IMG/VR virus record: IMGVR_UViG_3300042483_000521
Length of the DNA stretch: 20,000 nt
Reading direction: 5' to 3' (one strand)
Source: an uncultured virus (IMG/VR IMGVR_UViG_3300042483_000521)
Lineage: Duplodnaviria > Heunggongvirae > Uroviricota > Caudoviricetes
Positions 3,580 to 20,000 of this stretch are shown here, piece by piece. A model generated the notes under the pieces. It searched no databases. It saw nothing but the letters and a program-made list of their open reading frames with translations, and was not told the DNA's origin. The stretch's first letter is position 1. Every line of letters begins with the position of its first letter. The position numbers were made by a program, and so were the translations under genes.

Positions 3580-3580
3580 A

Positions 3581-4150: not shown

Positions 4151-4159
4151 GGGAGTTAT

Positions 4160-4209
4160 AAAGAAAATGCCAGAGGACTTTGAGAACTAATCCTCTCACC
4201 CTCTGGCAT
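4160..4209 (-). terminator. terminator/attenuator hairpin after the auxiliary capsid gene
   Basis: 10-bp stem ATGCCAGAGG (4167-4176)/CCTCTGGCAT (4200-4209), inner TGAGA/TCTCA, followed on the minus strand by TTTCTTT. Confidence 0.65.
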
Positions 4210-4238
4210 AGGTTGTAGAAATTTTAACTTACCTACTA

Positions 4239-5417: not shown

Positions 5418-5442
5418 TTTTTTGTTTGTTTGTTAAGTTTAT

Positions 5443-6174
5443 TTATTCATTTGTTTGTATTCTGAACTGGGCACTTTGTACCGCAGATGCATTCTCTGTA
5501 TACATTGCTAAGTTCTGGACAGTTAAATCTACTAACTCGTCTTCCAGATAAGCTTCAAGTTCACAATCAACGTCTGTTGAGGGTTGACCATCAAACCTGA
5601 TGTAGCCTGTCTTATCAATGTAGATTGGGTATCTCATGTACGAAATGTATATCGCAGTTGGAGTGAACGTTCCGTCAGTGAATATACTAATTTCATCTGA
5701 AGAGATAAAATTAAATGTTTCTTGATATTCAAAGGATGGCTTGTAGTGAACGTTGTTCAATAAGAACTGCAAATCACCATGTTTTGCCAAATCTTTATTT
5801 ATCCAGATTTGTCGATCCTTACATACACCCTTGTCAGCTAAAACATAACTGTCAATGTAGAACATATATTTTGGATCAAGTAAATCAATATCAGCTGCCC
5901 ACTGATTTAGTGTTTGGTTTTTGAGATGAAGATTTAACACGCCAGCATTGTAATTAATTACAAGCTTCTGTAAGTCTTCATAACGCTTTTTGAAAGCGTC
6001 TAGTCCCATTCCACTAACAACACTAAATCCATCAACCTTCTGTTTGATAAGCTTAATCTGCGCTTCGTTAAGTGCAAGTATTTTATCTTCTAGTTGAATC
6101 TGCTGATGCTCATTAGTTGATAGTTTATTTAGTTTTTGATCAATCTTATATAATAAACTATCTACAGGTATCAT
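5443..6174 (-). CDS. crAss-like tail ring (head-tail connector) protein
   Basis: 243 aa; LNEAQ, YMRYP and DCELEAYLEDELVDLTV motifs resemble crAss ring proteins; ATGA overlap with the upstream gene. Confidence 0.7.
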   Translation of the reverse strand: MIPVDSLLYKIDQKLNKLSTNEHQQIQLEDKILALNEAQIKLIKQKVDGFSVVSGMGLDAFKKRYEDLQKLVINYNAGVLNLHLKNQTLNQWAADIDLLDPKYMFYIDSYVLADKGVCKDRQIWINKDLAKHGDLQFLLNNVHYKPSFEYQETFNFISSDEISIFTDGTFTPTAIYISYMRYPIYIDKTGYIRFDGQPSTDVDCELEAYLEDELVDLTVQNLAMYTENASAVQSAQFRIQTNE

Positions 6175-7139
6175 ACAGAAGCGAGTTTCTTAGATTTCAA
6201 CTTTTGTTCTAGAGTAATTAGTTCGTCTTGATTATCATCGTTAGCCAAGAATTTCACCAATTCATCTTCGTCTTTTGCCACTTCATATTCACCTTCAAAG
6301 ACACGTCCACTGGACTTAACTCTGTAAACTGAATGTGCAATAGCTTGCTTAACCAAATCTTTGATATGGAGTAAATTTTCCTTCATGTCTGCAAATCTGT
6401 TAAACACTTCGATTGTTGACAATCCTTGGTATTTACCAGCTTTGAATTCAGTCTGCTTGAGAATATTATCCACTTGATTATATACAAAATCTTCTTTGGA
6501 ATCTTCTGTAACTGGAAGTCCTAGAAGTCTTGCCACCTTTCTTTTCTTCTCAGGAGTCATTGAATCAAACTTGGAGATTGCCTTGTTGATCAATTGTTTC
6601 TTCTTGAAGATTACAGCATTTTCGATATCATCATCTACAACGTAGAATTGTGTATCTGCTGGATAGTCACCTCTTTCCCATGCTTGATAAGAACTAGCAA
6701 TAGTTGGATGAACTCTCAACCAAGAAAAAGCAAGTTCTTGAAAAGGTATTACTAAATCGAAGTAGTTGTCACCATCAAGAAGTTTTACAGGTTGGACATG
6801 ACTATTATCATCTGTTGATCTTGATAATCCATAGTTCCAGAAAGTAGCTCTTGGTCCAAGATCTATTCCACCTAAAGCATTTTCAAGTTTCTGTCTTAAC
6901 GCTGTTACACGTTCAGTTTCTAGTTCACGTTCTGTAGGATCAGCAATTCTTTTGATGTAAGCAGCATCAGGATCTAAACCTGTTCTGTATCTTCCATCAA
7001 GTTCCTTGTAAGGATATTTAAAAACTCCAGTTCCTGGAATTCTTGATAGTCCTCTTTGTGATAATCCTCCTTGCATAGTTTGCAAGCCAGCACTGTTATA
7101 CTCCTTCTTAATAGTGGAGATTTTCCCTAATTTACCCAT
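6171..7139 (-). CDS. conserved crAss capsid-module protein downstream of MCP (function unknown)
   Basis: 322 aa; occupies the conserved slot immediately after the MCP. Confidence 0.65.
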   Translation of the reverse strand: MGKLGKISTIKKEYNSAGLQTMQGGLSQRGLSRIPGTGVFKYPYKELDGRYRTGLDPDAAYIKRIADPTERELETERVTALRQKLENALGGIDLGPRATFWNYGLSRSTDDNSHVQPVKLLDGDNYFDLVIPFQELAFSWLRVHPTIASSYQAWERGDYPADTQFYVVDDDIENAVIFKKKQLINKAISKFDSMTPEKKRKVARLLGLPVTEDSKEDFVYNQVDNILKQTEFKAGKYQGLSTIEVFNRFADMKENLLHIKDLVKQAIAHSVYRVKSSGRVFEGEYEVAKDEDELVKFLANDDNQDELITLEQKLKSKKLASV

Positions 7140-7173
7140 TACGTAGTTATTTGATTATTATTGGTTTGTTTTG

Positions 7174-7218
7174 CAGAGTGCACCAATCAAATGGCTAGGC
7201 TCACTGACCCACACTCTG
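7174..7218 (-). ncRNA. compact three-way-junction RNA in the MCP downstream intergenic region
   Basis: CAGAGTG/CACTCTG closing stem enclosing two hairpins, GGGT-CAGTGA-GCCT and GCCA-TTTGAT-TGGT. Confidence 0.45.
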
Positions 7219-7266
7219 TTTTGAAACGTTTTCACGTCAGTCTGAAAGAGCTACTTTCAGAGAGGT

Positions 7267-7297
7267 AAAAAGTGCCCCTCGCTTTGAGGGGCTCTTT
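7267..7297 (-). terminator. intrinsic terminator after the major capsid gene
   Basis: GCCCCTC-AAAGC-GAGGGGC followed by ACTTTTT; T-tracts on both strands. Confidence 0.8.
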
Positions 7298-7301
7298 TAT
7301 A

Positions 7302-8855
7302 TTAGAACTGTGGAATTTCTTCGATAAGAACAGTTCGTGACAAATCTTCGATGAATACATCGCAACGATCTTGCATCCAGATTTCATAGCCTGGGAATTT
7401 GTTGGCAGAAGACATACCCTGAGACTTAGCAAAGCCTAAGTGGTGTCTACGTCCATCAATATAACCCCAAGTCATAGAAGGAGCACCCTTCATACGTACT
7501 TCACGAATGTTGTTGACCATAGAGCCATCAGACATTGGAGATACGTCAAATACCATGAACACAGGAGTGGACTTCTTGTTCTGACCAAATTCCAAGTTGG
7601 ACTGAGGAAGATCAAGTTCTTTCAAGTGGATAAGTTCAACACGACCAGTCTCACGAGTTACCATTGCATCGAATGCAAAGTTGTAAGTGATGTGCTGTCC
7701 TTCTCCTTGCATGTAACGGTTACCGCTATCTGCCATGAAAGTAAGACCAGAATTCAAAGCATCTGCTTTAAGAGCCTGCTGGAACACATCGAAGCCAGCT
7801 TCGTTAGTGTACATTTTAACTCTTCTATCCTTAACATCCACACGTCTGTAGAACAAGTCTCCAAATACGGAACGGATAAGGTTTGCGGAGAATTCTCCAC
7901 GATTGTATTGTACCAAGTTACCATTGTTACGCATTCTGTGGTAAACACCAGCAGACACACGCTTCAATTCTTGCTTAGATCCATTAGTTTTTACAGTGCC
8001 TGGCTTAGACCAGATCATTCGCTTCACCTTAAGTTCAAGCATTGCTTTTCTCAACATGAATTCTACGAATGGCTCCCACTTAACATCGTTACGGGTTAGA
8101 GGAAGTTGGTTTCTACGCTGAGGAGCATATACCAAGATGTCAAGAGCTTTTCCAGAAGCATCCACCATCATTTTGTCATCAGCCCATGCAGTAACTTGGT
8201 GCTCAAAACCATATCCAGAACCAAGAGATTCGAACATAGTGATTTTCTCACCAAGTCTTGGCAAACCAAGAAGATCCTGATCAAATTCACCAATTGCAGC
8301 ATCAACCAATTCTAGTTCGATACCAATTTGCAAGAAAGTAGAGCTTACAAAGTCCACGATTGGGTTATCAGAAACCAATGTGAAAGTGTAAAGGAAACCT
8401 GCATTCCAAGGAACTGGATCTTTTACAGCATACCATCTTGGACCATACTGACGAGAACCTACAGAAACGATAGCGTTCTTAGAGAATTCGTTAGTGTCCA
8501 ATACCACCTGAAATTCCTGACCATCAATACCTGGCTTGCTCAACTCAGCAGTAGAGCTAGGGATGTCAATGATTTTAGGGAATTTGTAAGGAACTTGAAC
8601 TTCCCACTTCCAAGAATCGCTGTTGTTGTCGATGTAATAAGGAGTGGACTTGTTGATCATATCAAGGAAGTCATTGCTATACAATGAGCTCTGAGTGTAC
8701 AAGGAGATAATCTTCTTGTCATAGTCAGCTGGCTCAGTAGAGTGGAATGACTCCAAGTGATTTGAATCAGTTAGCTTTCCTACGGCACGTTTGTCCATTG
8801 ACGCAACACGGGCATAGGTAAAGCCAGTTAAACCTGGGATTGTTTGAATTGCCAT
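7302..8855 (-). CDS. major capsid protein (crAss-like, HK97 fold)
   Basis: 517 aa, follows portal and scaffold-like genes, followed by a strong terminator; crAss-type motifs WKWEV, MYTNEAGF and a C-terminal CDVFIED. Confidence 0.88.
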   Translation of the reverse strand: MAIQTIPGLTGFTYARVASMDKRAVGKLTDSNHLESFHSTEPADYDKKIISLYTQSSLYSNDFLDMINKSTPYYIDNNSDSWKWEVQVPYKFPKIIDIPSSTAELSKPGIDGQEFQVVLDTNEFSKNAIVSVGSRQYGPRWYAVKDPVPWNAGFLYTFTLVSDNPIVDFVSSTFLQIGIELELVDAAIGEFDQDLLGLPRLGEKITMFESLGSGYGFEHQVTAWADDKMMVDASGKALDILVYAPQRRNQLPLTRNDVKWEPFVEFMLRKAMLELKVKRMIWSKPGTVKTNGSKQELKRVSAGVYHRMRNNGNLVQYNRGEFSANLIRSVFGDLFYRRVDVKDRRVKMYTNEAGFDVFQQALKADALNSGLTFMADSGNRYMQGEGQHITYNFAFDAMVTRETGRVELIHLKELDLPQSNLEFGQNKKSTPVFMVFDVSPMSDGSMVNNIREVRMKGAPSMTWGYIDGRRHHLGFAKSQGMSSANKFPGYEIWMQDRCDVFIEDLSRTVLIEEIPQF

Positions 8856-8880
8856 TGTTTTTTACTTTGTTTAATTTAAT

Positions 8881-10125
8881 TTATAAGAACCATGAGTTCG
8901 CTTTTCCAGGATTGCCACCAGAACCAGGTTTTTTACTGGTCTGTCTTGCGACTTCCTCAAATAACTGGGTTGACTTCTTAGTCACTCCTGTTCTTTGTAT
9001 GGTAGATAACGTAGGATCTTTTTCTAAAATCTTAAGAAGAAGTCCCAGCTTAACTTTCATAGCATGGTTCTCAGGTCTCTTAAGTTCCAGGATAGTCTTG
9101 TCAAAATCTGTTAGGGTTTCGCCTGAAGAAGTTTTGTACTTGTCTACCAAAAGGAAGTCTTGTAGTTCTGATGCCAATTTGGGGTTTAATGGAATTCCAT
9201 CAAACTCCTTTGTTTTCAATTTGTCTTGAAGGACAGACTGAACGTTTTGTATATACTGATTTCGAACCATTGCTTTCTGCTGAAGTTGTTGTTCAGCTTG
9301 TTGCTCCATCTGTTGCAACTTTACTGCTTCCTTCTTAACAAGCACTTTGTGATGCTTGCTAGCAACTGTTTCTAAATCACCGTAGTTTCTAAGTCTTTCA
9401 ACTTCTGTAGTGACATCTTCTTCATCGAATCCTTGATCTGTCAGAGCTTGTTTGATAACTCTCACTTGATTGTCTTCATTAGAAAGATCCAACTCAGCAA
9501 AACTCACCACATTGTTGTATACACCAAAATAATCTTTAGGGTTTATACCCTTTACAAATATGGCATCAAACGCTTTTTGGTAATCTTCTCCAAATTGACC
9601 TATGAAGTTGTCAACAATTTCAATTGCACCTTTTTTCTTTTCTGAATTGAACTTTTCCAAGAATTGCTCTGGAGTTTCAATTGCAGCATCTTCTTCCTCA
9701 TCATCTTTTGTAAAAACACCAAGTTTGAAAAGGTCTTTCGATAAAGAAACAAATGGTGATTCTGCAACATCATCATCTTCTTCCTCAGCTTCTGCTTCTG
9801 CTTTAGCTTTGGTTGGTGTTGCTACAACATCTTCTTCTGTTTCTTCTTCATCATCATCTCCAAGAAAGTTTTTCAAAACATCTTGTTGAGTGGTTTCTTC
9901 ACCATCTAGCTTTTGGACAACTTCTTTACCTTTTAATACTTCTGGTTTTTTAGGAGCTTTTGGTTCATCTGCTGTCTTTACAATCGTCTCTAACTTATCA
10001 GGATCTTCTGTAGAAGTTTCTGGAGAGAACAAATCGTCCAACAACTGTGTGTTACCTATCCCCATTTCCATAGTATCTTCAATACCAAAGTTACCAAATG
10101 ACGGAGTGTCTAGGTTGTCTGCCAT
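8881..10125 (-). CDS. acidic scaffold-like protein
   Basis: 414 aa; highly acidic low-complexity N-terminus and helical C-terminus; lies between portal and MCP. Confidence 0.65.
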   Translation of the reverse strand: MADNLDTPSFGNFGIEDTMEMGIGNTQLLDDLFSPETSTEDPDKLETIVKTADEPKAPKKPEVLKGKEVVQKLDGEETTQQDVLKNFLGDDDEEETEEDVVATPTKAKAEAEAEEEDDDVAESPFVSLSKDLFKLGVFTKDDEEEDAAIETPEQFLEKFNSEKKKGAIEIVDNFIGQFGEDYQKAFDAIFVKGINPKDYFGVYNNVVSFAELDLSNEDNQVRVIKQALTDQGFDEEDVTTEVERLRNYGDLETVASKHHKVLVKKEAVKLQQMEQQAEQQLQQKAMVRNQYIQNVQSVLQDKLKTKEFDGIPLNPKLASELQDFLLVDKYKTSSGETLTDFDKTILELKRPENHAMKVKLGLLLKILEKDPTLSTIQRTGVTKKSTQLFEEVARQTSKKPGSGGNPGKANSWFL

Positions 10126-10160
10126 ATATGTAGTTAATTAATTGATTGGTTTGTATGATA

Positions 10161-10191
10161 TAAATGTACTTTCGTTTATAAAATAATCAAA
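10161..10191 (-). promoter_or_regulatory. Bacteroidota primary-sigma-type promoter for scaffold/MCP
   Basis: TTTG (10191-10188)-N19-TACATTTA (10168-10161), one mismatch to TAnnTTTG. Confidence 0.6.
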
Positions 10192-10258
10192 TAAGGAATA
10201 ATCAAAATTGTTGTTTTTTTGACACGTATAGCATTAATATTAATTTTTCCATATTTTA

Positions 10259-12853
10259 TTATTTCTTATTGCTTTTAGATGCTCTATTTGTAGCATTTAT
10301 CTTAGCCACTTCAACATCATTCTTCATATTCTCTCTAGCAACATTTAGTTTCTCTTTTTCAAGCTGTAGCTTCTGCATAGCTTGATTGTTTTTAGATTGA
10401 ATATCCTGCATCTTCAATTGATAATCTTGAGCTGCTTTAGACTGTTGCATAGATAGATTTGATATCTCTAGTATATCAGCAGTGCCTGACTGATCAACAT
10501 CTTGTGTTGCTGCCTCTCCTCTTGCAGCTGCATTAATAAGAGCTATTTCCTTCTTATTGATTCTATCAAGTTCTTGCTGATAGTTTTGGTTAGCCAACAT
10601 TTCTTGCTGTTGTTGTTGCTGAGCTTGCATCTGAGCAGCTGCAATTTGTTGTTGTTGCTCAATCTGTTGTTGCTGTTGTTGCATCTGTTGGTCTTGAATC
10701 ATTTGCTGACGATCCTTGAGATTTTTGAATGTCTTCTTCATCTCTCTCATAGACTTAGTAGAATACAATTCTATTACATCATATAGTGTGCCACCATTCT
10801 GAATGACAGCCTGAGATAGCTGACGAAGCTCATTAAACATTTGTGTATCTTCTGGTCTGTTAGTTACAAACACTTTAAGATCACGAAGCTTCAAATCATT
10901 ACCATTAACTTGTATAAATGCAGATTCTCCCTCTGATGTAATATATGACAATGTAGACATAGGCTTAGCACTTTCTATATATTGTGCAGCATCTACAATA
11001 GCTTGATATAACTGACCTAATACATACTCGTGTGCGATGAATAGAGGCTCTGTCTGGGCATATGACTGACTGACAGCTGTGTTGACACCTGTGGCAGATT
11101 CGCTCGCTTGTACGCTTCCTAAACGCTGTCTAGAGATGCCTATAAGTTCCCAACATTCGTTCTTCAGTTGGAGAGCAAGATTATATCTAGACTGGATTTC
11201 ACCAGTTCTTGTCAAGTCTATATTTCTCGCAATGGTAGTGTTGGAGACAGCAGCCTTTGTGTTCTCTGGACTGTCGTCATCGAATATGATACCACGCTCT
11301 CTTGCTTCCATTTCCCATACATCTAGAGCATCTTGATCATCTCCATCTTTTAGTCTAGGAACACGTCTAATATTTACAGAAGCTACGTTACCAATTTCTT
11401 TTTCTAGCAGTTTGTAGAGCTGATTCATGCAAATGTTGTACAACACCTGGAATGGCTTCATTAAATCCACTAATGATTTGGCTTCTGTGTTCTTCACCTC
11501 ATACGTAGTGCCTATGATAGGGCAATAGTTGAGGATTTTAAGAGGTTTGATGTGATAGATGTCTGGACCAATCTTTGTTCCTTGATACCACTGATTAATC
11601 CAACCCCACTCAAGAGAGATTTCTGTAGGAATAGTTTTTGCTTTGTAGTTTTCGTCAACAAGAACGGTTTGTTCATTACCCATCTCATCAAGATAGGAAA
11701 GTTTACCAATCTTTCTCTTACTGATCCAATATGATCTAACAACAACATATTTGTATCCAAATGTAGACACGTTTGTTGTTAAGCCTAAGAAGTCTTTTAG
11801 TCCATCATTGTTTTCTTTCATCTCACTTTCAATCATCATTCTTGTCTGAAGAACAAGAGGATCGAATGTGTCGTATTGAATAGAGTCAATACCATCAGCA
11901 GCATTAGGATTACCAAGATTGGATTCACGAACGTTGATGAGTCCGTAGTCTTGTAATGAGCTTCTTAGGTGATCAATCTCTTCTTTAGTGAGGTCAGGAA
12001 TGCTTTCAATAATTTCAGAAAGTTCCATAACTTGCACAGTACCAGCAGCATACGCTCCTTGATTTCTTCCTGTTGGATCAGAAATCCACTTTCTATCTGG
12101 CGTTGTTAGGAACCATGTATTCTTTGGGTTGGCTACTTCTATGTTAAATCCAAGTTTGGAGTTATCTTCATAGATGTGATAGAATTCTCTAGCAGAAATA
12201 AGAAGATCTCTAAATGCATCTTCACTCTTTTCTTTGAGATTGAATTCTGCTTTCTGACATGTAAGAATGTGGTTGGCCCATTTTTCTGCTACAGAAGTGT
12301 AAGAATCTAGTTGATCCTTCACTTGCTCCATTGTCATCTGCTCTAGCTGCTCTTCGTCAATTTCTTGACCCTGCATAGCTATCTTCTGCATTATTTTTTG
12401 TCTTGCCTGAGAAAGAATAAACTCTTGTAGAACATCTGTTTTGAATTGTAGTTCTTCAGCTTGACTATCATCATCAAATGCCTTTACACGAAATGTATCT
12501 GGACGCTTAGATATTTCACCTACAAGGTTATTGATGGGAGTGGTTACAATAGAATAATGTTTAACATATGCTGGTAAACCTAAGTCTGCCTGAAGCATTT
12601 CTGTAAAAGATTTTACATCTGGCTCCTGATAAAAGTCTTCCATACGTAGAATACCTTTAACCAAGTCATAGTTTTTAACAAACGTGTCACGACTTTTCAT
12701 ATATTCTGCATACGACTTGTTTGCAAAATAATCCATCGTGTTTTTTACCCAGCTCTCATCATTCTTCTCTTTCTCTGTCTTAAATTGATCAGGAAAAATG
12801 TTAAGATAGGCATATCGTATGGTTGCGTCCTTTGTATATCTAATGATTGCCAT
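10259..12853 (-). CDS. portal protein
   Basis: 864 aa directly after TerL; crAss portal-like motifs (KHYSIVTTPINNLVGE, SLVDLMKPFQVLYNI, GISRQRLG); Gln-rich C-terminal coiled coil. Confidence 0.88.
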   Translation of the reverse strand: MAIIRYTKDATIRYAYLNIFPDQFKTEKEKNDESWVKNTMDYFANKSYAEYMKSRDTFVKNYDLVKGILRMEDFYQEPDVKSFTEMLQADLGLPAYVKHYSIVTTPINNLVGEISKRPDTFRVKAFDDDSQAEELQFKTDVLQEFILSQARQKIMQKIAMQGQEIDEEQLEQMTMEQVKDQLDSYTSVAEKWANHILTCQKAEFNLKEKSEDAFRDLLISAREFYHIYEDNSKLGFNIEVANPKNTWFLTTPDRKWISDPTGRNQGAYAAGTVQVMELSEIIESIPDLTKEEIDHLRSSLQDYGLINVRESNLGNPNAADGIDSIQYDTFDPLVLQTRMMIESEMKENNDGLKDFLGLTTNVSTFGYKYVVVRSYWISKRKIGKLSYLDEMGNEQTVLVDENYKAKTIPTEISLEWGWINQWYQGTKIGPDIYHIKPLKILNYCPIIGTTYEVKNTEAKSLVDLMKPFQVLYNICMNQLYKLLEKEIGNVASVNIRRVPRLKDGDDQDALDVWEMEARERGIIFDDDSPENTKAAVSNTTIARNIDLTRTGEIQSRYNLALQLKNECWELIGISRQRLGSVQASESATGVNTAVSQSYAQTEPLFIAHEYVLGQLYQAIVDAAQYIESAKPMSTLSYITSEGESAFIQVNGNDLKLRDLKVFVTNRPEDTQMFNELRQLSQAVIQNGGTLYDVIELYSTKSMREMKKTFKNLKDRQQMIQDQQMQQQQQQIEQQQQIAAAQMQAQQQQQQEMLANQNYQQELDRINKKEIALINAAARGEAATQDVDQSGTADILEISNLSMQQSKAAQDYQLKMQDIQSKNNQAMQKLQLEKEKLNVARENMKNDVEVAKINATNRASKSNKK

Positions 12854-14880
12854 TATGAAAATAATTTATTTTTTCTCGTATTAAACATATTTTTAGAGCT
12901 GGTGAACAGCGTATTACTCTTAATCTTTCTTGAATACAATGACTTAACTCTATCATCACTAGTTCCTCCAATCTTTCCTAATATAGGGTCCATTTTAAGT
13001 GCCTGAGCTATAGCAAGTTCTGCTGCTATAATTCTATCGAAGTTTCCCTCATCGTTGTATTGGATGATTTCTTCAAGAAGCATTGGGTCAAATATCTTAC
13101 TCACTCCTGCCACTTCTTTAGTTATTTTACCATCATCATCTTTCTCAGAATAAATAACATCTTCCATATATCTTTTTAGACATGTATGTAGATAGTCAAT
13201 TATTTTTTGAGCTGATCTGTGAATTCCATACTCTCGTTTCACAGTAGTGTTTGGAATCACTTCTAACAACCATTGTGGTTGCTTCTCTAGATAGTGTGCA
13301 TCACCTTTGCTTTTCATGTATTCAATGAACGAAATATCGTCATTTTCACAAAGAGCTCTAGCATTGTAATATTTAATCAGTAATCTAGCCTGTTCTTCCC
13401 ACGTCTCCTTCTTATCAGGTCTTGCACAATACGAAGCTACGAACATATCCTGATATTTTTCACCAGTGAGATCGTGCATTCTCTTGTAAATATACACAGA
13501 ACCTAGTGAAGTTGAATACTTTGCCTGTCCTTGTCTGTAGGGGTCAACTCCTGCAACGTATAATCCATAGGGAGGATTCTCAATAGGAAACTCATATATC
13601 ACTATAGGAGCATCTTTTCTGTCTGTACTCTTGAGAGGAAAGTTTGTAATAGGCATGTTGTCTGTAAACTCATGTCCTATTTTTCCTTCGTCACTAAATA
13701 ATATAACAGGCGTTCCTGTTCTTTCATTCTGTAACAGCCTGATTTTCTGCCTCTTAGCAGCTTCTATGTCAAAGATGTTGGTGTCTTCGTTGAGGAATAT
13801 GTCATCCACCTTTTGTGGGTAGTACATTTTCTCTTTTAAGAATGCTATTCTATCGCCAGCTTTCTTTAATCTTTCTAAGTTATCGTTAGTGATTTTTTCA
13901 GCCTTCTCTTCATTAGACACTAATATTTTTACATTATGAAGATCACTATTTTTTGAAGCATTTACGTAAGCTCCTAACGTAGAATCTTCTTTGGCTTCCA
14001 TTCTATACTTGTTAGAAATGAATAGCCCATGTACACGTTTTGTATCATCTTCATTGTTGTATGTTAGGAAGTTGTAATTGTCAACATCAAACATCAACGA
14101 TTTAGCATCCATAAAACGCTTCATATCACCTCCTGTACCTGTAAGAATAGGAGAACATCCCCATCCAAATGGTGTTGTGAAGCCAGGAACAGCAGCCTGT
14201 AAGCCTCTTAAGAAAGACCCCTTACCAATCTCGTCAATAATGAGCTTACGTGGTTTTGTACCAGCAATAGCTTCTTCATTATTGCCCTCATCTAAGTTAC
14301 GAATAAGAATTTGAGAGAATGGTATTCTCTCTCCTCCCTTTGTCTTTATTCCTAATGTCACCTGATTCTTCCAATTATCTTCTACACGTTGCCATCTGAA
14401 GTATTCAGGGAGGAAGTTGAGGCCCTTGTCAAGCTTGTCTGTAATAAGCTTAATATCTGGAGCATTCAATCCAGCAATAACATTCTGTGAGTTCTCATCA
14501 AATGTGGCACCCCAAGCAATATAACTTGCCTCAAGCACAGACTTAGCAAAACGTCTAATGCCCAAAATGACCAACCCACGCTTCTCAGCATGGGCTCTGT
14601 CTATTTCATTTGTCACTAACCATTCATTGTCTCTTAGCGAGGGATTGGCATATTTTTGATAAATGCGTCCTCTATCATCCATAACATCCACTTCTGTATG
14701 CCACAGATTCAAATGCCAATACAGAAAGGGGTTGATGAACACACCATCCATCATAAATCCATCAAGACACAGCTTCTTATGAAAGTCAAAGAAGGGCTTG
14801 TATTCCTGTGATGTTTTATCAGGAAGACGTGGCTGGTTAATCAACCACTCACTGTATTTAACATTTTCTAAATGATTCAT
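12853..14880 (-). CDS. terL: terminase large subunit
   Basis: 675 aa; variant Walker A (GIRRFAKS), Walker B (LIIDEIGK), coupling motif GTGG, nuclease motifs YVAGVDPY and NFDRI; uninterrupted. Confidence 0.92.
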   Translation of the reverse strand: MNHLENVKYSEWLINQPRLPDKTSQEYKPFFDFHKKLCLDGFMMDGVFINPFLYWHLNLWHTEVDVMDDRGRIYQKYANPSLRDNEWLVTNEIDRAHAEKRGLVILGIRRFAKSVLEASYIAWGATFDENSQNVIAGLNAPDIKLITDKLDKGLNFLPEYFRWQRVEDNWKNQVTLGIKTKGGERIPFSQILIRNLDEGNNEEAIAGTKPRKLIIDEIGKGSFLRGLQAAVPGFTTPFGWGCSPILTGTGGDMKRFMDAKSLMFDVDNYNFLTYNNEDDTKRVHGLFISNKYRMEAKEDSTLGAYVNASKNSDLHNVKILVSNEEKAEKITNDNLERLKKAGDRIAFLKEKMYYPQKVDDIFLNEDTNIFDIEAAKRQKIRLLQNERTGTPVILFSDEGKIGHEFTDNMPITNFPLKSTDRKDAPIVIYEFPIENPPYGLYVAGVDPYRQGQAKYSTSLGSVYIYKRMHDLTGEKYQDMFVASYCARPDKKETWEEQARLLIKYYNARALCENDDISFIEYMKSKGDAHYLEKQPQWLLEVIPNTTVKREYGIHRSAQKIIDYLHTCLKRYMEDVIYSEKDDDGKITKEVAGVSKIFDPMLLEEIIQYNDEGNFDRIIAAELAIAQALKMDPILGKIGGTSDDRVKSLYSRKIKSNTLFTSSKNMFNTRKNKLFS

Positions 14881-15209
14881 CGTCTACCTTTAAGGAAATC
14901 TTCAGCCATTGAGCCAAGCTCACCATTGCCACGTATTTCCACTTTAGATTCTTCTTTCTCTCTAAGCTTATCTACCACCTCAAGCAAAGCCAGATAGTTC
15001 TTCATTGTCTCCTGGATAAACTTACCCTGACTCTCAATACTAGCAATCACCATAGGTAACATTCCACCCTTAGCTGTAGGCTTCCATTCTATTCTGTCTG
15101 TCAGCTTATGCAGAGGATTGGCATCAACATATTCCTTCCAGGAAGCAAGTTGTTGTTCTGCCCAATCAAGCTCTGTATTAATGTACGTAGTTTTCTTAGG
15201 AGCAGCCAT
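14877..15209 (-). CDS. putative terminase small subunit
   Basis: 110 aa helical protein with an ATGA overlap on terL; call is positional. Confidence 0.45.
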   Translation of the reverse strand: MAAPKKTTYINTELDWAEQQLASWKEYVDANPLHKLTDRIEWKPTAKGGMLPMVIASIESQGKFIQETMKNYLALLEVVDKLREKEESKVEIRGNGELGSMAEDFLKGRR

Positions 15210-15403
15210 TATGAGAGGGTTACAATACCAACAGCAGCTGTCTTCAGCTCTGTAACAGATGTTTGTATTGGACCGCTGAGCAAGTCTTGGATTTGCTTGT
15301 TAGCAATCTCCTTTGTCTTCTCATCAATACCAGGCGTAGCGCACAACGCTGCCAATCTTTCAATAACGGACATTGATTCTTGTCCAATCATAGCTCTAGT
15401 CAT
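15209..15403 (-). CDS. hypothetical protein
   Basis: 64 aa, translationally coupled on both sides. Confidence 0.65.
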   Translation of the reverse strand: MTRAMIGQESMSVIERLAALCATPGIDEKTKEIANKQIQDLLSGPIQTSVTELKTAAVGIVTLS

Positions 15404-15648
15404 ATTAAATTGTTTATATCTTCATCAGAAAGTGGTTGATCATCGTCTTCTTCTTCATCATACACATCAGTTTCTTCTTCAGACATGTATTCTTCTTTGA
15501 CAACAATATTAATGACATCTTGATCTTCACCTTGAATACCAATAATGTCAACGTAATCAGCTCCAGAGTCCCATATATTTGTTAATGCATCGAGGAGCAA
15601 TTGCAAGTTGATTTTTCTAAAACGTATTTCTTTATTCTGCCTCATCAA
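15400..15648 (-). CDS. acidic hypothetical protein
   Basis: 82 aa with a D/E-rich C-terminus; overlaps its neighbours. Confidence 0.7.
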   Translation of the reverse strand: MMRQNKEIRFRKINLQLLLDALTNIWDSGADYVDIIGIQGEDQDVINIVVKEEYMSEEETDVYDEEEDDDQPLSDEDINNLI

Positions 15649-15913
15649 TTTCGTCCTCCTGTTCTCTTGTCATAACTGGTTTCCATTTATCTGTAGGACA
15701 CGCACAAGACAGACATTTTGTTTTAGCTGACAATGTACATCCGCAATGTGTACAATGTGCATCTAAACGTATTGTCTTGTGGTTCTTAGAATGAAACTTG
15801 CATTCATTGCAAATACTCATTCTTTCCTCTGACACTTGATCAATCTGTTCCTTTAGGCTTTCTTCTGGAAGTAGATTGTTTTTCCAACCTTCGTAAATCT
15901 GTGTTAAGCTCAT
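15632..15913 (-). CDS. Cys-rich Zn-binding protein
   Basis: R..ICNEC...CTHCGCTLSAKTKCLSCACPTDKW pattern. Confidence 0.75.
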   Translation of the reverse strand: MSLTQIYEGWKNNLLPEESLKEQIDQVSEERMSICNECKFHSKNHKTIRLDAHCTHCGCTLSAKTKCLSCACPTDKWKPVMTREQEDEIDEAE

Positions 15914-16253
15914 TTATCTTATTCATTAATACTTTACGCCTCAACAACATGTAATCAATATCATCATTCCACTTCTCCGTTTTAACATCACTGTCAGAGC
16001 TGGAAATCATGTCTCTCAAACTTCTAATCTTCTCATCTAGAACATCAAGTCTCTTCTGTGCAGCTCTATCATTCCACTTCAATGTGCCAAACCCAGAAAT
16101 CTCCACTGTCTTATTCTTCTGTAAAGCAGCTAATGCACTATCAAACTGATGTCGTATTATTTGATCAACAATCTTCACATCCATCTCTAGGGACTCAGCA
16201 AGCTTCCTAACAAACCAATCCCTATGGGACATTGAATTAGGCTTTTCCTTCAT
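15840..16253 (-). CDS. HU/IHF-like DNA-binding protein
   Basis: Helix-helix followed by VEISGFGTL, the HU/IHF signature; IHF-like genes occur upstream of terminase in crAss-like phages. Confidence 0.75.
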   Translation of the reverse strand: MKEKPNSMSHRDWFVRKLAESLEMDVKIVDQIIRHQFDSALAALQKNKTVEISGFGTLKWNDRAAQKRLDVLDEKIRSLRDMISSSDSDVKTEKWNDDIDYMLLRRKVLMNKINELNTDLRRLEKQSTSRRKPKGTD

Positions 16254-16584
16254 GCAAAATCTTTATCTCTAATGTAATGTCACTGGAGAAATCTAGGGAA
16301 ATTAAAGGATTGACAACAATCTTTCCATCTTTCTTAAGAAGAAGGTTACGCTTCTTCAGCTTCGACACCATATTATTCACCGTTGCTCCTGTTGTACTGT
16401 ACGTAGTACAGAATTTCTCCCTATTACTAGGAACAGAAATACTTCCAGAAACAGCAATGAAAGACATCAACTGAACTTCCCTCTCTGTAAGCATTAAATC
16501 GTTCAATGCAGAAAGAACAGAATAGTATCTGTACGACACATCCGTGTCATTCTGTAATCCCTTCTTTAATCGTTGTACAATCAT
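16237..16584 (-). CDS. winged-helix DNA-binding protein (start moved to ATG 16584)
   Basis: LTEREVQLM...TVNNMVSKLKKRNLL..KDGKIVVNP is a wHTH pattern; the ORF-track TTG start lies inside the promoter -7 box. Confidence 0.7.
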   Translation of the reverse strand: MIVQRLKKGLQNDTDVSYRYYSVLSALNDLMLTEREVQLMSFIAVSGSISVPSNREKFCTTYSTTGATVNNMVSKLKKRNLLLKKDGKIVVNPLISLDFSSDITLEIKILHEGKA

Positions 16585-16602
16585 TTCCTTATTGGTTTCT
16601 AA

Positions 16603-16635
16603 CAAATATAAAACATCCTCCGTGAAAATAACAAA
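16603..16635 (-). promoter_or_regulatory. Bacteroidota primary-sigma promoter heading the late operon
   Basis: TTTG (16635-16632)-N21-TATATTTG (16610-16603), an exact consensus match. Confidence 0.75.
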
Positions 16636-16828: not shown

Positions 16829-17242
16829 ATGAGTAAGATTGTAGAAATGATCATTGAAGGTGAGGACATTGATAGAGTTCAGTTCGTTCGCACTAGACAG
16901 TACAAGAGCACCAAAGAGGGCTTTGCAGGAGAATCTTTCGAGGTCTACAAGGTTAAAGGCATCACCTTTAGAGTACCTAGCAAAGATGCTTTTAACAAAG
17001 ACTTTGAGGGTAGAGCCAAAGTAGTTCGAAAGATCTATTTGATTGAACGCAAAGGCGTTGAATTGAAAGCACAGGACGAAAACGGTGATGCGATCGTCAA
17101 GGATCTTTGGGACTTCGATGGCTATAGCACCAACGATAGTTTTCTTGCAAACAAGAAGGTTGAAGGCTTAGCAAAGCGTTACTCTGAAGGGAACTTCACA
17201 GACACTGCTAACATCGTTGAACTAGAAGAGGCACTAGGTTAA
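16829..17242 (+). CDS. hypothetical protein, first gene of the plus-strand (early) cluster
   Basis: 137 aa with an A-rich leader AAACAAAAAACAC-ATG. Confidence 0.85.
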   Translation: MSKIVEMIIEGEDIDRVQFVRTRQYKSTKEGFAGESFEVYKVKGITFRVPSKDAFNKDFEGRAKVVRKIYLIERKGVELKAQDENGDAIVKDLWDFDGYSTNDSFLANKKVEGLAKRYSEGNFTDTANIVELEEALG

Positions 17243-17520
17243 CACGGAAGGGGCTTAGGCCCTTTCCTCGTGTATAGGCACTATTACACATCCAATGCAT
17301 CTGAGCAAATCAGACGTATATGATACATGTTGCGTTGTATTATATATGGTGTGAGGATGTGTAGTTGCTATTCTCTAGGTAAAATGCAATGGTTTTATGG
17401 TAATGTACAATTTAATAAACTTTTCTCGAGGGAATTGTAAACTTCATGTTGTACTTTACTAATAAATTGTTGTGAGAATAAGAGTAGGAGTGACACCACA
17501 CACGTAATAATGGGGTGTTT
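17242..17520 (+). ncRNA. candidate multi-domain structured RNA
   Basis: ~320-nt gap without a plausible ORF, densely filled with stems containing G-U pairs on the plus strand. Confidence 0.5.
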
Positions 17521-17565
17521 TCGTAAGTGTTGATTTCAGTATTCATTATTTTATATAGCATTAAC

Positions 17566-17793
17566 ATGTATACCATCATTAATAAAACAAAAAGAAACAT
17601 CATTAAGTGTGAAGGTGATTGGCCTGATCTTGATGAAGCATTAAATGCAGGAGATAAGATAATTGTAATCAGTCTTTATTCTAACACTATTAAAGTTCCA
17701 TATTATACAGAACATAATGGTATTGTAGAATGGAGATGGGATAATTATCCTTTTGATCCTAATTGTTTTAACATTAAATCCAATCAGGTATGA
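17566..17793 (+). CDS. hypothetical protein (start at ATG 17566)
   Basis: 75 aa MYTIINKTKRNIIKCEGDWP... Confidence 0.75.
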   Translation: MYTIINKTKRNIIKCEGDWPDLDEALNAGDKIIVISLYSNTIKVPYYTEHNGIVEWRWDNYPFDPNCFNIKSNQV

Positions 17794-17948
17794 CAGTATT
17801 CATTGTATTCATTGCAGAGATTCCTTCTATACATAAGAAAATAGAGATTAGGAATGATGAGTTGTATGCAGATGATAGACTTATTTGTGATGCTATGTAT
17901 GTACAAAAAATCATCATTACAACAACAGACAAGATTGAGAGCCTGTAA
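17790..17948 (+). CDS. 52-aa hypothetical protein, absent from ORF track
   Basis: MTVFIVFIAEIPSIHKKIEIRNDELYADDRLICDAMYVQKIIITTTDKIESL; ATGA overlap with the previous gene. Confidence 0.7.
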   Translation: MTVFIVFIAEIPSIHKKIEIRNDELYADDRLICDAMYVQKIIITTTDKIESL

Positions 17949-17986
17949 CAGGACTCTTTTGTTTTTAACATTAAACCAATAGAAAT

Positions 17987-18268
17987 ATGAAAGTATATTT
18001 AGTTTATTACGATAATGGACATGCTTATGAAGATCATGACGTTAGCGTTGTTAGAATCTTTCTTAGTGAGGATAGTGCATCTAAGTGTGTCATTGATAGA
18101 AACAACAACAGAGAGTTTGTTCCTTCTATGACTAAACATGAATATTATTCTCAAGATCCAGAAGAGATTGGTCAATCTTATGAAGATTGGTTAAAGTATG
18201 CAAAGTCATCATGGGATTTTTACAATTGTGGTAGATATTTCCATGTAGAGGCAGAAGTATTTGAATAA
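17987..18268 (+). CDS. hypothetical phage protein
   Basis: 93 aa; MKVYLVYYDNG..YED....V.IF.SE..A type N-terminus common in small phage ORFs. Confidence 0.8.
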   Translation: MKVYLVYYDNGHAYEDHDVSVVRIFLSEDSASKCVIDRNNNREFVPSMTKHEYYSQDPEEIGQSYEDWLKYAKSSWDFYNCGRYFHVEAEVFE

Positions 18269-18339
18269 TTGTATGTGGCCACGTAGTGCCTTAATCCATC
18301 CGTGATGCATGTGAAAGCATGTAGGATGGACATACAATT
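18267..18339 (+). ncRNA. three-way-junction RNA directly upstream of the ribozyme
   Basis: Perfect 10-bp AATTGTATGT/ACATACAATT stem; TCCATCC/GGATGGA stem capped by TGCATGT-GAAA-GCATGTA. Confidence 0.55.
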
Positions 18340-18490
18340 TCAATGCACCACAACTCATTTCCCAAGGATGAGCAGTTGTAATATCCATATGGGTCAAAGC
18401 ACTTGTGTACAGAGTGTGACGTAACTAAGGATGGTCTATGTTCATTACATAGTTCCTGAATGTATTACAACTGAGTGCAGAGGGATTTGG
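18335..18490 (+). ncRNA. twister-like self-cleaving ribozyme (type P1) with an extended P5
   Basis: C^AA-TGCA-CC ... CTCAT-TTCCCAAGG-ATGAG - P5 - TGCA-GA-GGG. P2, P4 and pseudoknots T1 (CCC/GGG) and T2 (CC/GG) occur in twister order. Confidence 0.7.
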
Positions 18491-18561
18491 AGGGATATAT
18501 GCTCCCAAGCAGGTGCAAAGCCTGCATTTATTTATTTATTCATTTAAACCCACACAACAAC

Positions 18562-18741
18562 ATGTTAAAATCAATTCTAACTTTCTTGTTTCCTAAGACT
18601 ATTGCTTCTATAAAGAAGGATGCTCTTGATAAGTATTTTGCTGATGATATGCAGCAACAATGGGATGAGATCAATGAGTATGAAGAAAGAATGCATCTTG
18701 AAAACGAGCAATTGGATCAATCTTACATGCATGACTTATGA
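18562..18741 (+). CDS. hypothetical protein (start at ATG 18562)
   Basis: 59 aa MLKSILTFLFPKTIASIKK... with an A/C-rich leader. Confidence 0.7.
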   Translation: MLKSILTFLFPKTIASIKKDALDKYFADDMQQQWDEINEYEERMHLENEQLDQSYMHDL

Positions 18742-18860
18742 TCACATTATGTATTATGCCCAATTTCAAGGGCACAAGCACTGAGACTATTAAAGCATTT
18801 GTTACATGTCTCGTATTAGATAGTATTTATTGTTTACCAATTTTAATCAATTATTTATGA
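18738..18860 (+). CDS. 40-aa hydrophobic peptide, absent from ORF track
   Basis: MITLCIMPNFKGTSTETIKAFVTCLVLDSIYCLPILINYL; ATGA overlaps at both ends. Confidence 0.6.
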   Translation: MITLCIMPNFKGTSTETIKAFVTCLVLDSIYCLPILINYL

Positions 18861-19162
18861 ACACACTAAAATTAGTTAGAGCTATAGCTATGGGAACAGC
18901 TGTGCTTGCAGGAGTCTTATCTATTTGCATTCTTGTATTTACAGGATCAGCAATTGATATGGGTGTAACAGATGAGCAGTTTCTCATCACTGTTATTGTA
19001 TTCTTCATTTCCACATTGTATTGGTCAGCTGTTGATGCGATTATTAGAAGAGATGAGGCTTATACAGAAGCTGTAAAGAAGATTCATCAGACAACATTTA
19101 ATCAAGCTGTTACATTGATGATCATTTGTATTCTTGGAACACTTTCTCTGGTATTCTTATGA
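18857..19162 (+). CDS. membrane protein, about three TM helices
   Basis: 101 aa from ATG 18857 with three hydrophobic segments. Confidence 0.75.
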   Translation: MNTLKLVRAIAMGTAVLAGVLSICILVFTGSAIDMGVTDEQFLITVIVFFISTLYWSAVDAIIRRDEAYTEAVKKIHQTTFNQAVTLMIICILGTLSLVFL

Positions 19163-19374
19163 AGTATGCCAGAGAGTGTTCTATTACAGGTGAAGGAATG
19201 AATCAAGGATGGGTTGGAGATGATGGATGTGTCTATTTCAAATATGAGAAAGATGCATTACAATGGTGCATAAGCAGAGGATATAGAGATATTGACGATG
19301 CTTATGTTGATGATGTAATTTATTACACAGAATGGGAAGATTTTGAACAAGACGCTGAAGATTATGATAATTGA
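19159..19374 (+). CDS. hypothetical acidic protein
   Basis: 71 aa MKYARECSITGEGMNQGW...YYTEWED; ATGA overlap. Confidence 0.8.
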   Translation: MKYARECSITGEGMNQGWVGDDGCVYFKYEKDALQWCISRGYRDIDDAYVDDVIYYTEWEDFEQDAEDYDN

Positions 19375-19573
19375 AAGACAAAGTATTGTATCTGGTAAAG
19401 TTTATCAGATGGAATTGGATATTACTCAACAACAGTTGAATGATTTCACTAATGGTAGACTTGGATTGATTCAAGAGGCATTTCCTCATTTATCTATTGA
19501 TGAACGTGAGTTCATTATATCTGGTATTCATCCAATAGAATGGAGAGAGTTATTTGGAGAATTAGAGGATTAA
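19364..19573 (+). CDS. hypothetical phage protein
   Basis: 69 aa with LIQEAFPHLSIDEREFIISGIHPIEW, a motif typical of a widespread small phage protein. Confidence 0.8.
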   Translation: MIIERQSIVSGKVYQMELDITQQQLNDFTNGRLGLIQEAFPHLSIDEREFIISGIHPIEWRELFGELED

Positions 19574-19588
19574 TTTAATCAAACGCAC

Positions 19589-19717
19589 ATGAAAAAATTA
19601 ACTAAAAGAGAATTCAGCTATGCAATAGTATTCTATAGCATGCTAAGCTTGTTAATCTGCGCACTTATTGTGTGGTGGGTTGAATTTATTAAGCAATATC
19701 CGCAAATCATATTCTAA
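19589..19717 (+). CDS. 42-aa single-pass membrane peptide, absent from ORF track
   Basis: MKKLTKREFSYAIVFYSMLSLLICALIVWWVEFIKQYPQIIF. Confidence 0.65.
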   Translation: MKKLTKREFSYAIVFYSMLSLLICALIVWWVEFIKQYPQIIF

Positions 19718-19730
19718 TGTGATTTGTGCG

Positions 19731-19758
19731 TCTGCTGAGCATCAGAATAAACTGCTCA
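19731..19758 (+). ncRNA. candidate H-type pseudoknot
   Basis: TCTG/CAGA stem whose loop TGAGCA pairs with TGCTCA after an ATAAAC linker. Confidence 0.45.
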
Positions 19759-19818
19759 ATTATATAGCATTAAGTAAAAATCAAAGCAAATAAACAAACA
19801 ATTAAAGCAAAAACGCAC

Positions 19819-20000
19819 ATGAAAGCACACACAACAATTGCAGACGTGTTGATGGACATCAATACACCTGAAACAGCAAAGAAGTTCGTTGTGATTACAG
19901 ATCACGAGAACACGTTTTACTTTTCCTATCCAGGAGAAGATGAGTTTGAAGCAATGAGAGGACAAGATTTTCTCACACGTACATTTATTCCTTTCTCAAT
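19819..20000 (+). CDS. hypothetical protein (partial, runs off right edge)
   Basis: MKAHTTIADVLMDINTPETAKKFVVITDHENTFYFSYPGEDEFEAMRGQDFLTRTFIPFS..., open to the window end. Confidence 0.75.
   Translation, partial: MKAHTTIADVLMDINTPETAKKFVVITDHENTFYFSYPGEDEFEAMRGQDFLTRTFIPFS

What the first reader, a model, noticed from the sequence alone, without database searches (positions are those of the whole stretch)
18335..18490. Variant twister ribozyme carrying a 79-nt structured insert in P5
Seen in sequence: C18341-A-A; P2 TGCA (18344-47)/TGCA (18476-79); CC (18348-49); P4 CTCAT (18354-58)/ATGAG (18368-72) around loop TTCCCAAGG; a perfect 11-bp stem CAGTTGTAATA (18373-83)/TATTACAACTG (18463-73); then GA-GGG (18480-84). 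Established: twister ribozymes have the order N^AA-P2-GC...P4[UCCCAAGC]-(optional P5)-P2'-GA-GGG. Here T1 (CCC/GGG) is kept and T2 appears as a compensatory CC/GG instead of GC/GC. L4 has one extra U and P1 is weak. Inference: it self-cleaves between 18341 and 18342, processing the early phage transcript and leaving a 5'-OH RNA that carries the insert and the downstream membrane-peptide genes.
Basis: partly seen in the sequence, partly recalled or inferred. Interest (0 to 1): 0.85.

Follow-up and report, generated by a model that had tools for sequence, protein, structure and literature searches.

The report
Divergent phage twister ribozyme with long P5
This stretch is one copy of a large, phage-only family of RNAs built like the twister self-cutting ribozyme but different enough that the standard catalogue misses it; it probably trims the leader of a phage message, though cutting has not been shown.

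Summary
P4, left free in that pattern, pairs 5/5 in 129 of 132 matches. In bacterial genomes the same pattern gives chance-like pairing (5/5 in 8 of 125). P1, P2, P4 and P5 covary. The catalytic G is kept in 90 of 97 copies.

Order and conserved letters match twister. Canonical twisters from the same collection share UAAUGCA...UGCAGAGGG with it.

Three results count against it. No Rfam twister model scores the family, even natural copies with a 4-bp P5, while canonical phage twisters score 40-61 bits in the same call. The two pseudoknots are almost invariant, so covariation barely tests them. Cleavage is untested.

Verdict: a divergent twister subfamily of crAss-like phages, with P5 extended and a hairpin upstream, usually lying shortly before a gene. 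The scan reached the same reading earlier on other DNA (e1-6104661).

The parts
17987..18268 (+). upstream ORF (93 aa), no family match
18267..18339 (+). P0-like structured domain: closing helix 18267-77/18329-39 around two hairpins, ending 2 nt before the cleavage site
   Evidence: -27.4 kcal/mol, z -3.94, 0 of 200 shuffles as good; near-identical in G007 and largely kept in L167
18341..18343 (+). predicted cleavage site C^AA (cut between 18341 and 18342; A18342 would be the general acid)
   Evidence: N-1 is T in 103 and C in 3 of 106 distinct copies; the roles of these bases come from PMC11662667
18344..18347 (+). P2 5' strand (pairs with 18476-79)
   Evidence: UGCA/UGCA, UGUA/UACA, AGUA/UACU; 97.8% of cells paired
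18348..18349 (+). T2 (PK1) 5' side CC, pairs with G18366-G18367
18354..18372 (+). P4 (18354-58/18368-72) with the 9-nt loop L4 UUCCCAAGG (18359-67); C18361-63 form the T1 5' side
   Evidence: compensatory U-A to C-G change against G007
18373..18473 (+). P5: 11-bp stem (18373-83/18463-73) holding a 79-nt insert (18384-18462)
   Evidence: in the family the span from the start of the 5' arm to P2' runs from 14 to 290 nt
18474..18479 (+). AG linker and P2 3' strand
   Evidence: linker is AG in 105 of 106
18480..18484 (+). GAGGG: G18480 would be the general base; G18482-84 form the T1 3' side
   Evidence: G in 90 of 97 copies, at positions not fixed by the search pattern
18489..18501 (+). GGAGGG followed by ATG 18499 (possible short leader ORF)
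   Evidence: in my reading of A3, the only two differences from G007 in its first 11 codons fall at third codon positions and are synonymous
18509..18540 (+). terminator-like hairpin GCAGG..CCTGC followed by a T-rich run
   Evidence: conserved in G007
18562..18741 (+). downstream ORF (59 aa), same length in G007

Best explanation
Window 18340-18484 encodes a type-P1 twister self-cleaving ribozyme of a divergent, phage-specific subfamily. On the + strand RNA, P2 and P4 form. The L4 loop UUCCCAAGG docks by two pseudoknots: CCC with the GGG of GAGGG (T1), and GG with the CC after P2 (T2). A long P5 arm projects from the junction. The RNA should cut itself between C18341 and A18342, with G18480 and A18342 acting in acid-base catalysis as in known twisters. 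Cutting would leave the upstream message ending in a 2',3'-cyclic phosphate just after a stable structured domain (18267-18339). The downstream RNA would start with a 5'-OH and the folded ribozyme body. Shown here: the family, its helices, the conserved letters, kinship with canonical phage twisters, the intergenic position and the orientation. Inferred: the pseudoknots, the cut itself, and its use to uncouple and stabilise the two halves of a read-through transcript.
For: P4, unspecified in the pattern, pairs 5/5 in 129 of 132 matches, and 120 of 132 have a fully complementary P2' followed by GAGGG downstream; 106 of these are distinct. Control: in 596 Gb of prokaryote genomes the same pattern gave 125 matches with chance-like P4 pairing (5/5 in 8), of which 6 are full members. 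Covariation on 109 model hits: 88.4% of cells paired against 78.0% when shuffled and at most 53.7% when slid; 27 of 31 pairs change on both sides; 0 of 500 shuffles reach the observed values. P1 is a short covarying helix in the family: mean contiguous length 2.51 against 1.28 (sd 0.11) with permuted partners. The 3' block was not fixed by the pattern and is conserved: G 90, A 93, GGG 90/90/92 of 97. A close relative (terminase 97% identical) has a compensatory P4 change at the same site. T1 has one compensatory CAC/GUG copy (L092:489-635). T2 has two independent UC/GA copies (L167, L177) and two U.G copies. G.U pairs outnumber mismatches at variable pairs, which fits an RNA read from this strand. 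Kinship: 34 of 66 matches to a canonical-twister pattern in viral contigs pair fully and read U^AAUGCA-GCC...UCCCAAGC...UGCA-GAGGG. The 8 of them that I scanned are all scored as twister-P1, 9 hits in all. Published tolerance: P1 is dispensable (PMC5408937 passages; PMC11662667); PK1 5' is 'NC'; L4 position 1 and L2 tolerate changes; all tested twisters with a P5 were active. Context: the element is intergenic and co-oriented with small ORFs in the 6 loci examined, 7 sites counting the window. The downstream open frame is longer on the same strand in 59 and on the opposite strand in 25 of 88.
Against: No Rfam twister model reports the window or any family member: cmscan; RF03160, RF02684 and RF03154 on five records at E<=10. 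In one search the minimal natural forms L021 and L029 got no twister hit, while all 8 canonical sources scored 39.8-60.8 bits. T1 and the inner T2 pair are essentially invariant, so covariation cannot test them. At the outer T2 pair, uncompensated C.A is commoner than the compensated form among copies whose L4 ends in A: metagenome CC/GA 14, UC/GA 1, CC/GC 1 distinct; viral UC/GA 2, CC/GA 1. McKinley et al. found most non-wobble mismatches there harmful. In this window P1 is a single pair and its 5' strand is locked in the upstream domain. L4 has 9 nt. A related class keeps L4, P5 and the 3' half but lacks the 5' half, so the 3' part may have a role apart from cutting. There is no evidence of cleavage: the four RNA-library runs are contigs and cannot show ends.
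Confidence: 0.75

Rival explanations
1. It is a conserved structured RNA with a twister-like fold that no longer cuts, or never did. It would act as a folded leader, for example a protein-binding site, a stability element or a translation regulator of the gene that follows.
For: No twister model scores it. Uncompensated C.A at the outer T2 pair occurs in 14 distinct metagenome copies. A sister class keeps L4, P5 and the 3' half without the cleavage-site half. The P5 arms are conserved in sequence beyond what pairing needs: CAGTTGTAATA/TATTACAACTG in 34 of 106.
Against: Every base that twister catalysis needs is kept: N^AA, the G of GAGGG in 90 of 97, and the L4 adenines. Canonical twisters scored by Rfam share the same P2 and flanking letters. 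A mere leader would have no reason to keep them.
Confidence: 0.15
2. The family is catalytic, but this window's copy is crippled. P1 is lost, the 5' flank is held in the upstream domain, and the copy may be a recombinant of two tandem ribozymes.
For: Only 1 P1 pair. Helix 18267-77/18329-39 ends 2 nt before the cut site. A relative carries two tandem copies; the window combines the upstream context of the first with the body of the second.
Against: P1 is dispensable in tested twisters. The core is intact and scores 80.9 bits on the family model. G007 keeps the same arrangement together with a compensatory P4 change, which points to selection.
Confidence: 0.07
3. It is a DNA-level element (a repeat, recombination site or protein-binding site), or a chance set of motifs.
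For: The flanks are unrelated between copies and some contigs hold two copies.
Against: Helices are kept through compensatory and G.U changes on one strand. Chance expectation is 2e-8. The prokaryote-genome control shows what chance matches look like.
Confidence: 0.02

Closest known systems
Twister self-cleaving ribozyme, type P1 (Rfam RF03160)
   Same: Same order of parts: P1, N^AA, P2, NC, P4 with an L4 loop holding UCCCAAG, optional P5, P2', GAGGG, P1'. Both pseudoknot pairings are possible, and the catalytic A and G are present (Rfam consensus line printed).
   Different: T2 is CC/GG, not GC/GC. L4 has 9 nt. There is no P3. P5 is always present and often long, whereas P5 is reported in 1% of annotated twisters (PMC6154101). 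The 3' junction is AG, against UAAA in the Rfam consensus line. P4 is A/U-rich. P1 is short or absent. The Rfam model gives no score at E<=10.
Canonical twisters in the same viral-contig collection (e.g. L339, L344, L347)
   Same: They share U^AAUGCA...UGCAGAGGG, including the UGUA/UACA variant of P2, and the L4 core.
   Different: They have GCC and UCCCAAGC, a G/C-rich P4, a clear 4-bp P1 and no P5. They score 39.8-60.8 bits on RF03160.
Twister-sister, hammerhead, pistol and hatchet ribozymes near phage genes
   Same: All are small self-cleavers found in or near phage genes, and their biological role is unknown (PMC6765202 passages).
   Different: No Rfam match to any of them.
Engineered ribozyme insulators placed in 5' leaders (RiboJ type; recalled, not from a call)
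   Same: This concerns how it would work, not membership: a self-cleaver just upstream of a start codon removes whatever was transcribed before it and leaves a fixed, folded 5' end.
   Different: Those are synthetic and use other ribozyme classes. Nothing here shows that the natural element does this.

Membership tests
twister ribozyme | Cleavage-site N^A followed by a second conserved A, directly 5' of P2 | tested here: met
   C18341-A-A then P2. N-1 is T in 103 and C in 3 of 106. AA was fixed by the search pattern, but it is also present in the extra full-length copies that the model found (L048:227-311, L092:489-635, L067:478-617).
twister ribozyme | P2 helix joining the 5' and 3' halves | tested here: met
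   4/4 pairs in the window. 97.8% of cells are paired, and all 4 pairs change on both sides somewhere in the family.
twister ribozyme | P4 hairpin whose loop L4 carries UCCCAAG | tested here: met
   P4 pairs 5/5 in 129 of 132 matches, with 17 pair combinations among 106 copies. L4 is UUCCCAAGG, one U longer than the rice loop quoted in PMC11662667.
twister ribozyme | Pseudoknot T1 (PK2): the CCC of L4 with the GGG 3' of the catalytic G | tested here: inconclusive
   Both sides are present and near-invariant: CG in 101, 99 and 101 cells. There is one compensatory A-U copy. Invariance neither supports nor refutes the pairing.
twister ribozyme | Pseudoknot T2 (PK1): NC after P2 with the last two bases of L4 | tested here: inconclusive
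   The window's CC/GG can pair. In the family: CG 98, UA 2, UG 2, other 2. Among metagenome copies whose L4 ends in A: CC/GA 14 against UC/GA 1.
twister ribozyme | Conserved G (general base) in GAGGG, directly 3' of P2' | tested here: met
   G18480. G in 90 of 97 copies at a position not fixed by the pattern.
twister ribozyme | P1 helix closing the motif | tested here: not met
   The window has 1 pair. The family has a short covarying P1: 2.51 against 1.28 with permuted partners. P1 is reported to be dispensable for cleavage, so this does not exclude membership.
twister ribozyme | A score with the Rfam twister covariance models (RF03160, RF03154, RF02684) | tested here: not met
   No hit at E<=10. 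Positive control: 9 hits of 39.8-60.8 bits in all 8 canonical sources in the same call.
twister ribozyme | Site-specific self-cleavage giving 2',3'-cyclic phosphate and 5'-OH ends | not testable with these tools
   The RNA-library runs were contigs only.

The most novel reading that the evidence does not exclude
The subfamily is a natural insulator coupled to a terminator. The cleavage site sits a few bases after a terminator-like hairpin and U-run, or after a larger structured domain as in this window, and typically some tens of bases before the next start codon. Terminated and read-through transcripts would then get the same protected 3' end. The downstream gene's message would always begin with the same folded 5'-OH leader, whatever was transcribed upstream. 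The P5 arm would be a free docking place for variable RNA modules. That would give twisters in phages a concrete, testable job.
Probability: 0.3. Interest if true: 0.7.

Novelty: new variant of a known kind. Interest (0 to 1): 0.5.

Why it matters
The chemistry of twister ribozymes is well understood, but what genome-encoded copies do is an open question (PMC6765202). This is a large phage-only subfamily that the standard models miss, so surveys based on Rfam undercount twisters in phages. Its placement is regular: after a hairpin and before a gene, in one or two copies per roughly 100-kb genome. That regularity yields a testable idea about function. It also shows that twister tolerates CC/GG in T2, a 9-nt L4 and P5 arms of widely varying length.

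Tried and rejected
Known RNA families. Rfam at gathering threshold found nothing in the whole window. At E<=10 on 18250-18600 only a mir-33 and a snoRNA match appeared on the minus strand; I rejected both as chance.

Similar DNA in cultured phages. There was no match to 17000-20000. The minimal ribozyme gave only weak chance hits.

Nearest held record. G001 lacks the element.

Nearest cultured relative by terminase. Leptolyngbya phage Lbo-JY46 gives only a 13.7-bit hit with the family model, not a clear member.

RNA evidence. Four RNA-library runs hold relatives of the core at a 0.04-0.10 share of words. They are stored as contigs, so they show no starts, ends, strand or expression level. I draw nothing from them.

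Second TCCCAAGC (18503-10) and second GAGGG (18490-94). I considered a second or alternative ribozyme. G007 changes CCCAAGC to CCCGAGC there, and the stretch reads better as a GGAGGG-ATG leader plus a hairpin.

Second model hit, 17404-17442 (12.5 bits). It is an inverted repeat TACAATT/AATTGTA with no ribozyme core.

A promoter reading of the 5' flank. The sigma-70-like site at 18311-18338 is one of 14 found against 16.1 expected, and the 5' flank shows no fixed-position motif across the family.

The TAATCAG variant class. I could not map it onto a twister.

Natural short-P5 copies were used in its place.

Full report
**1. The observation**

- C18341-A-A.
- TGCA 18344-47 facing TGCA 18476-79.
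- CC 18348-49.
- CTCAT 18354-58 and ATGAG 18368-72 around TTCCCAAGG.
- A perfect 11-bp stem, 18373-83 with 18463-73, enclosing 79 nt.
- AG 18474-75, then GAGGG 18480-84.

P1 is almost absent: only U18340-A18485 pairs. From the window's base composition the whole descriptor is expected 2e-8 times in the window. The 5' half, with no pairing demanded, never occurred in 2000 shuffles. The nested minimum-energy fold shows P2, P4 and P5 but is not unusually stable (z -1.10).

**2. A large family**

The exact 20-mer across L4, P4' and P5 occurs in 5 viral contigs. In the alignment the two core blocks are invariant, while both flanks and the inside of P5 are unrelated.

I then searched with a loose pattern that fixes only AA, CC, TTCCCAAGG and CAGT and leaves P2 and P4 free.
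- Of 132 matches, counting the window and the first five loci, P4 pairs 5/5 in 129, 4/5 in 2 and 3/5 in 1.
- 120 of the 132 have a fully complementary P2' followed by GAGGG within 400 nt. Of these, 106 are distinct.
- The same pattern in 596 Gb of prokaryote genomes gave 125 matches whose P4 pairing looks like chance (mostly 1-3 of 5; 5/5 in 8). Only 6 are full members, and at least 4 of those lie on short contigs of one metagenome-assembled genome.

That control shows what chance matches look like, and that the family belongs to phages.

**3. Anatomy and covariation**

Among the 106 distinct copies:
- N-1 is U in 103 and C in 3.
- P2 is UGCA/UGCA in 91, UGUA/UACA in 11 and AGUA/UACU in 1.
- P4 occurs in 17 combinations.
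- The linker before P2' is AG in 105.
- P5 has at least 8 contiguous pairs in 94.
- The span from the start of the P5 5' arm to P2' runs from 14 to 290 nt.

P1 exists in the family as a short helix that starts at position -2. Its mean contiguous length is 2.51, against 1.28 (sd 0.11, maximum 1.58) when 3' flanks are permuted among copies.

On 36 aligned copies, 87.2% of cells pair, against 78.1% when shuffled and at most 43.3% when slid; 0 of 500 shuffles reach the observed values.

A covariance model built from those 36 copies, without the window, scores the window at 80.9 bits. It finds 109 hits in 98 loci. On that alignment, which leans toward the model's structure:
- 88.4% of cells pair, against 78.0% shuffled.
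- 27 of 31 pairs change on both sides.
- The 3' block, which the DNA pattern did not fix, reads G in 90, A in 93 and GGG in 90/90/92 of 97 copies.

**4. The pseudoknots**

T1 is almost invariant. One extra copy, L092:489-635, has CAC in L4 and GUG in place of GGG, a compensatory change.

The inner T2 pair never varies. The outer T2 pair varies as follows:
- C-G in 98 copies, U-A in 2 (L167 and L177, unrelated copies), U.G in 2, and unpaired in 2.
- A metagenome scan aimed at copies whose L4 does not end in G found CC/GA in 14 distinct sequences, UC/GA in 1 and CC/GC in 1.

Uncompensated C.A is therefore the usual state when that G is lost. Covariation does not establish T2. T2 rests on complementarity and on likeness to twister.

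**5. Is it a twister?**

The evidence for:
- The order of parts and all letters assigned to catalysis and docking match what the literature describes. I read section 2.1 of PMC6154101, passages of PMC5408937, and sections 9, 27, 32, 33 and 35 of PMC11662667.
- Those sources state that P1 is dispensable, that the 5' side of PK1 is 'NC', that L2 and L4 position 1 tolerate changes, and that all tested twisters with a P5 cleaved well.
- A pattern for canonical twisters found 66 matches in viral contigs, 34 of them with full P2 and P4 pairing. They read U^AAUGCA-GCC...UCCCAAGC...UGCA-GAGGG. They share the P2 sequence and its UGUA/UACA variant with this family.

The evidence against:
- No Rfam twister model reports the window or any member.
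- In one search all eight canonical loci scored 39.8-60.8 bits on RF03160, with 9 hits. That is below the curated cut-off of 67.2 but at E 1e-12 to 1e-6.
- In the same call L021 and L029, natural family members with a 4-bp P5, gave nothing at E<=10.

Against the consensus line printed, the family differs in several ways: G to C and C to G in T2, one extra U in L4, an A/U-rich P4, AG in place of UAAA, an added P5 and a weak P1. I read it as a divergent subfamily, not as an ordinary member. Cleavage remains to be shown.

**6. Surroundings in the window**

The window is phage DNA.
- Large terminase, portal, major head and tail genes lie on the minus strand up to about 16.6 kb. An array of small ORFs lies on the plus strand from 16.8 kb.
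- The terminase is 39.8% identical to that of Leptolyngbya phage Lbo-JY46 and about 30% to Cellulophaga and crAss-like phages.
- The ribozyme lies between a 93-aa ORF ending at 18268 and a 59-aa ORF at 18562-18741.
- Directly after the stop codon, 18267-18339 folds into a closed domain (-27.4 kcal/mol, z -3.94) whose closing helix ends 2 nt before the cut site.
- After GAGGG come GGAGGG, ATG 18499 and a terminator-like hairpin with a T-rich tail.

G007, whose terminase is 97% identical, keeps all of this. It differs in the P4 closing pair (U-A to C-G, compensatory), in the junction, and inside P5.

**7. Surroundings in the family**

- Five near-complete genomes of 83-124 kb carry one or two copies each, 6 hits in all. 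Four of them have terminases only 29-31% identical to the window's.
- In the 6 loci examined, the element is intergenic and runs the same way as the small ORFs around it.
- Downstream, the longest open frame lies on the ribozyme's strand in 59 cases and on the other strand in 25, of 88 copies. A start codon opening a long frame was found in 73 of 88, at a median of 54 nt after GAGGG. Upstream there is no strand preference (49 against 54 of 104).
- The 50 nt upstream fold to -8 kcal/mol or better in 62 of 105 copies, against 33 of 105 control stretches taken 100 nt further up (Wilcoxon p 1e-5). Many of these are hairpins followed by a U-run that ends at the cut site.
- Twister reviews describe an optional P0 hairpin in that place in 21% of members.

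**8. How it most likely works**

The chemistry is inferred from known twisters, the layout from the results above. A transcript running through the upstream hairpin folds the ribozyme and cuts after N-1.
- The upstream RNA ends in a cyclic phosphate just behind a protective hairpin.
- The downstream RNA starts with a 5'-OH and a compact fold, shortly before its start codon.
- This would uncouple the two messages and could stabilise both.

In the window the hairpin and T-run after the ribozyme raise a second possibility: a short RNA running from A18342 to about 18540. I cannot decide between the two.

**9. Prior knowledge**

Paper searches found no description of this subfamily. They cover open-licence PubMed Central papers and bioRxiv only. 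I could not read Roth et al. 2014 or Weinberg et al. 2015, and their supplementary lists may hold members.

Several other notes describe twisters next to phage non-coding RNAs. I treated these as leads only.

**10. Verdict**

The element is a new variant of a known kind, not a new class.

Noticed in passing
L133, L134, L136, L139, L142, L143, L144, L146, L147, L150 (also L033:125-263 and L020:163-290): A sister class keeps UCCCAAGA, a P4'-like pentamer, the P5 arms, AG, P2' and GAGGG, but lacks the AA-P2-CC-P4 half. Instead TAATCAG pairs over 7-8 bp with CTGATTA 50-90 nt upstream, inside a conserved motif AAGATGT[GA]AAAC..CTGATTA that contains ATG directly followed by TGA or TAA. There is no Rfam hit, and I could not map it onto a twister.
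   Followed up: partly
window 18267-18339: A strongly folded domain (-27.4 kcal/mol, z -3.94) starts at the stop codon of the upstream ORF and ends 2 nt before the predicted cut. It is nearly identical in G007.
   Followed up: partly
window 18489-18540: GGAGGG, ATG 18499 and a hairpin with a T-rich tail are conserved in G007. In my reading of the alignment, the only two differences in the first 11 codons are synonymous third-position changes. In G007 the frame stops after 15 codons; in the window it runs into the 59-aa ORF. This may be a leader peptide, or only a hairpin.
   Followed up: partly
L167 (same contig as L005); L014, L016, L026, L056, L069: Tandem ribozymes lie 217-370 nt apart on one strand. 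In the L167 contig the first copy has the window's upstream domain and the second has the window's P4 and P5 insert. The window's single copy therefore looks like a fusion of the two.
   Followed up: partly
L144: A tRNA gene (53.3 bits) starts 6 nt after the GAGGG of a sister-class element.
   Followed up: no
L339-L399 (viral contigs): Canonical P3-less twisters occur in viral contigs: 34 of 66 pattern matches pair fully. The 8 loci scanned scored 39.8-60.8 bits, all below the RF03160 gathering cut-off of 67.2, and a default Rfam scan of 20 such loci reported none.
   Followed up: partly
window 17405-17441: An inverted repeat TACAATT ... AATTGTA around a 20-nt loop containing GAGGG gave a weak (12.5-bit) hit with the family model. 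The same ACAATT word lies in the ribozyme's 5' flank.
   Followed up: no
window 1-16605 (minus strand): A structural module (large terminase, portal, major head, tail) of a freshwater phage distantly related to crAss-like phages. The nearest cultured terminase is 39.8% identical (Leptolyngbya phage Lbo-JY46).
   Followed up: partly
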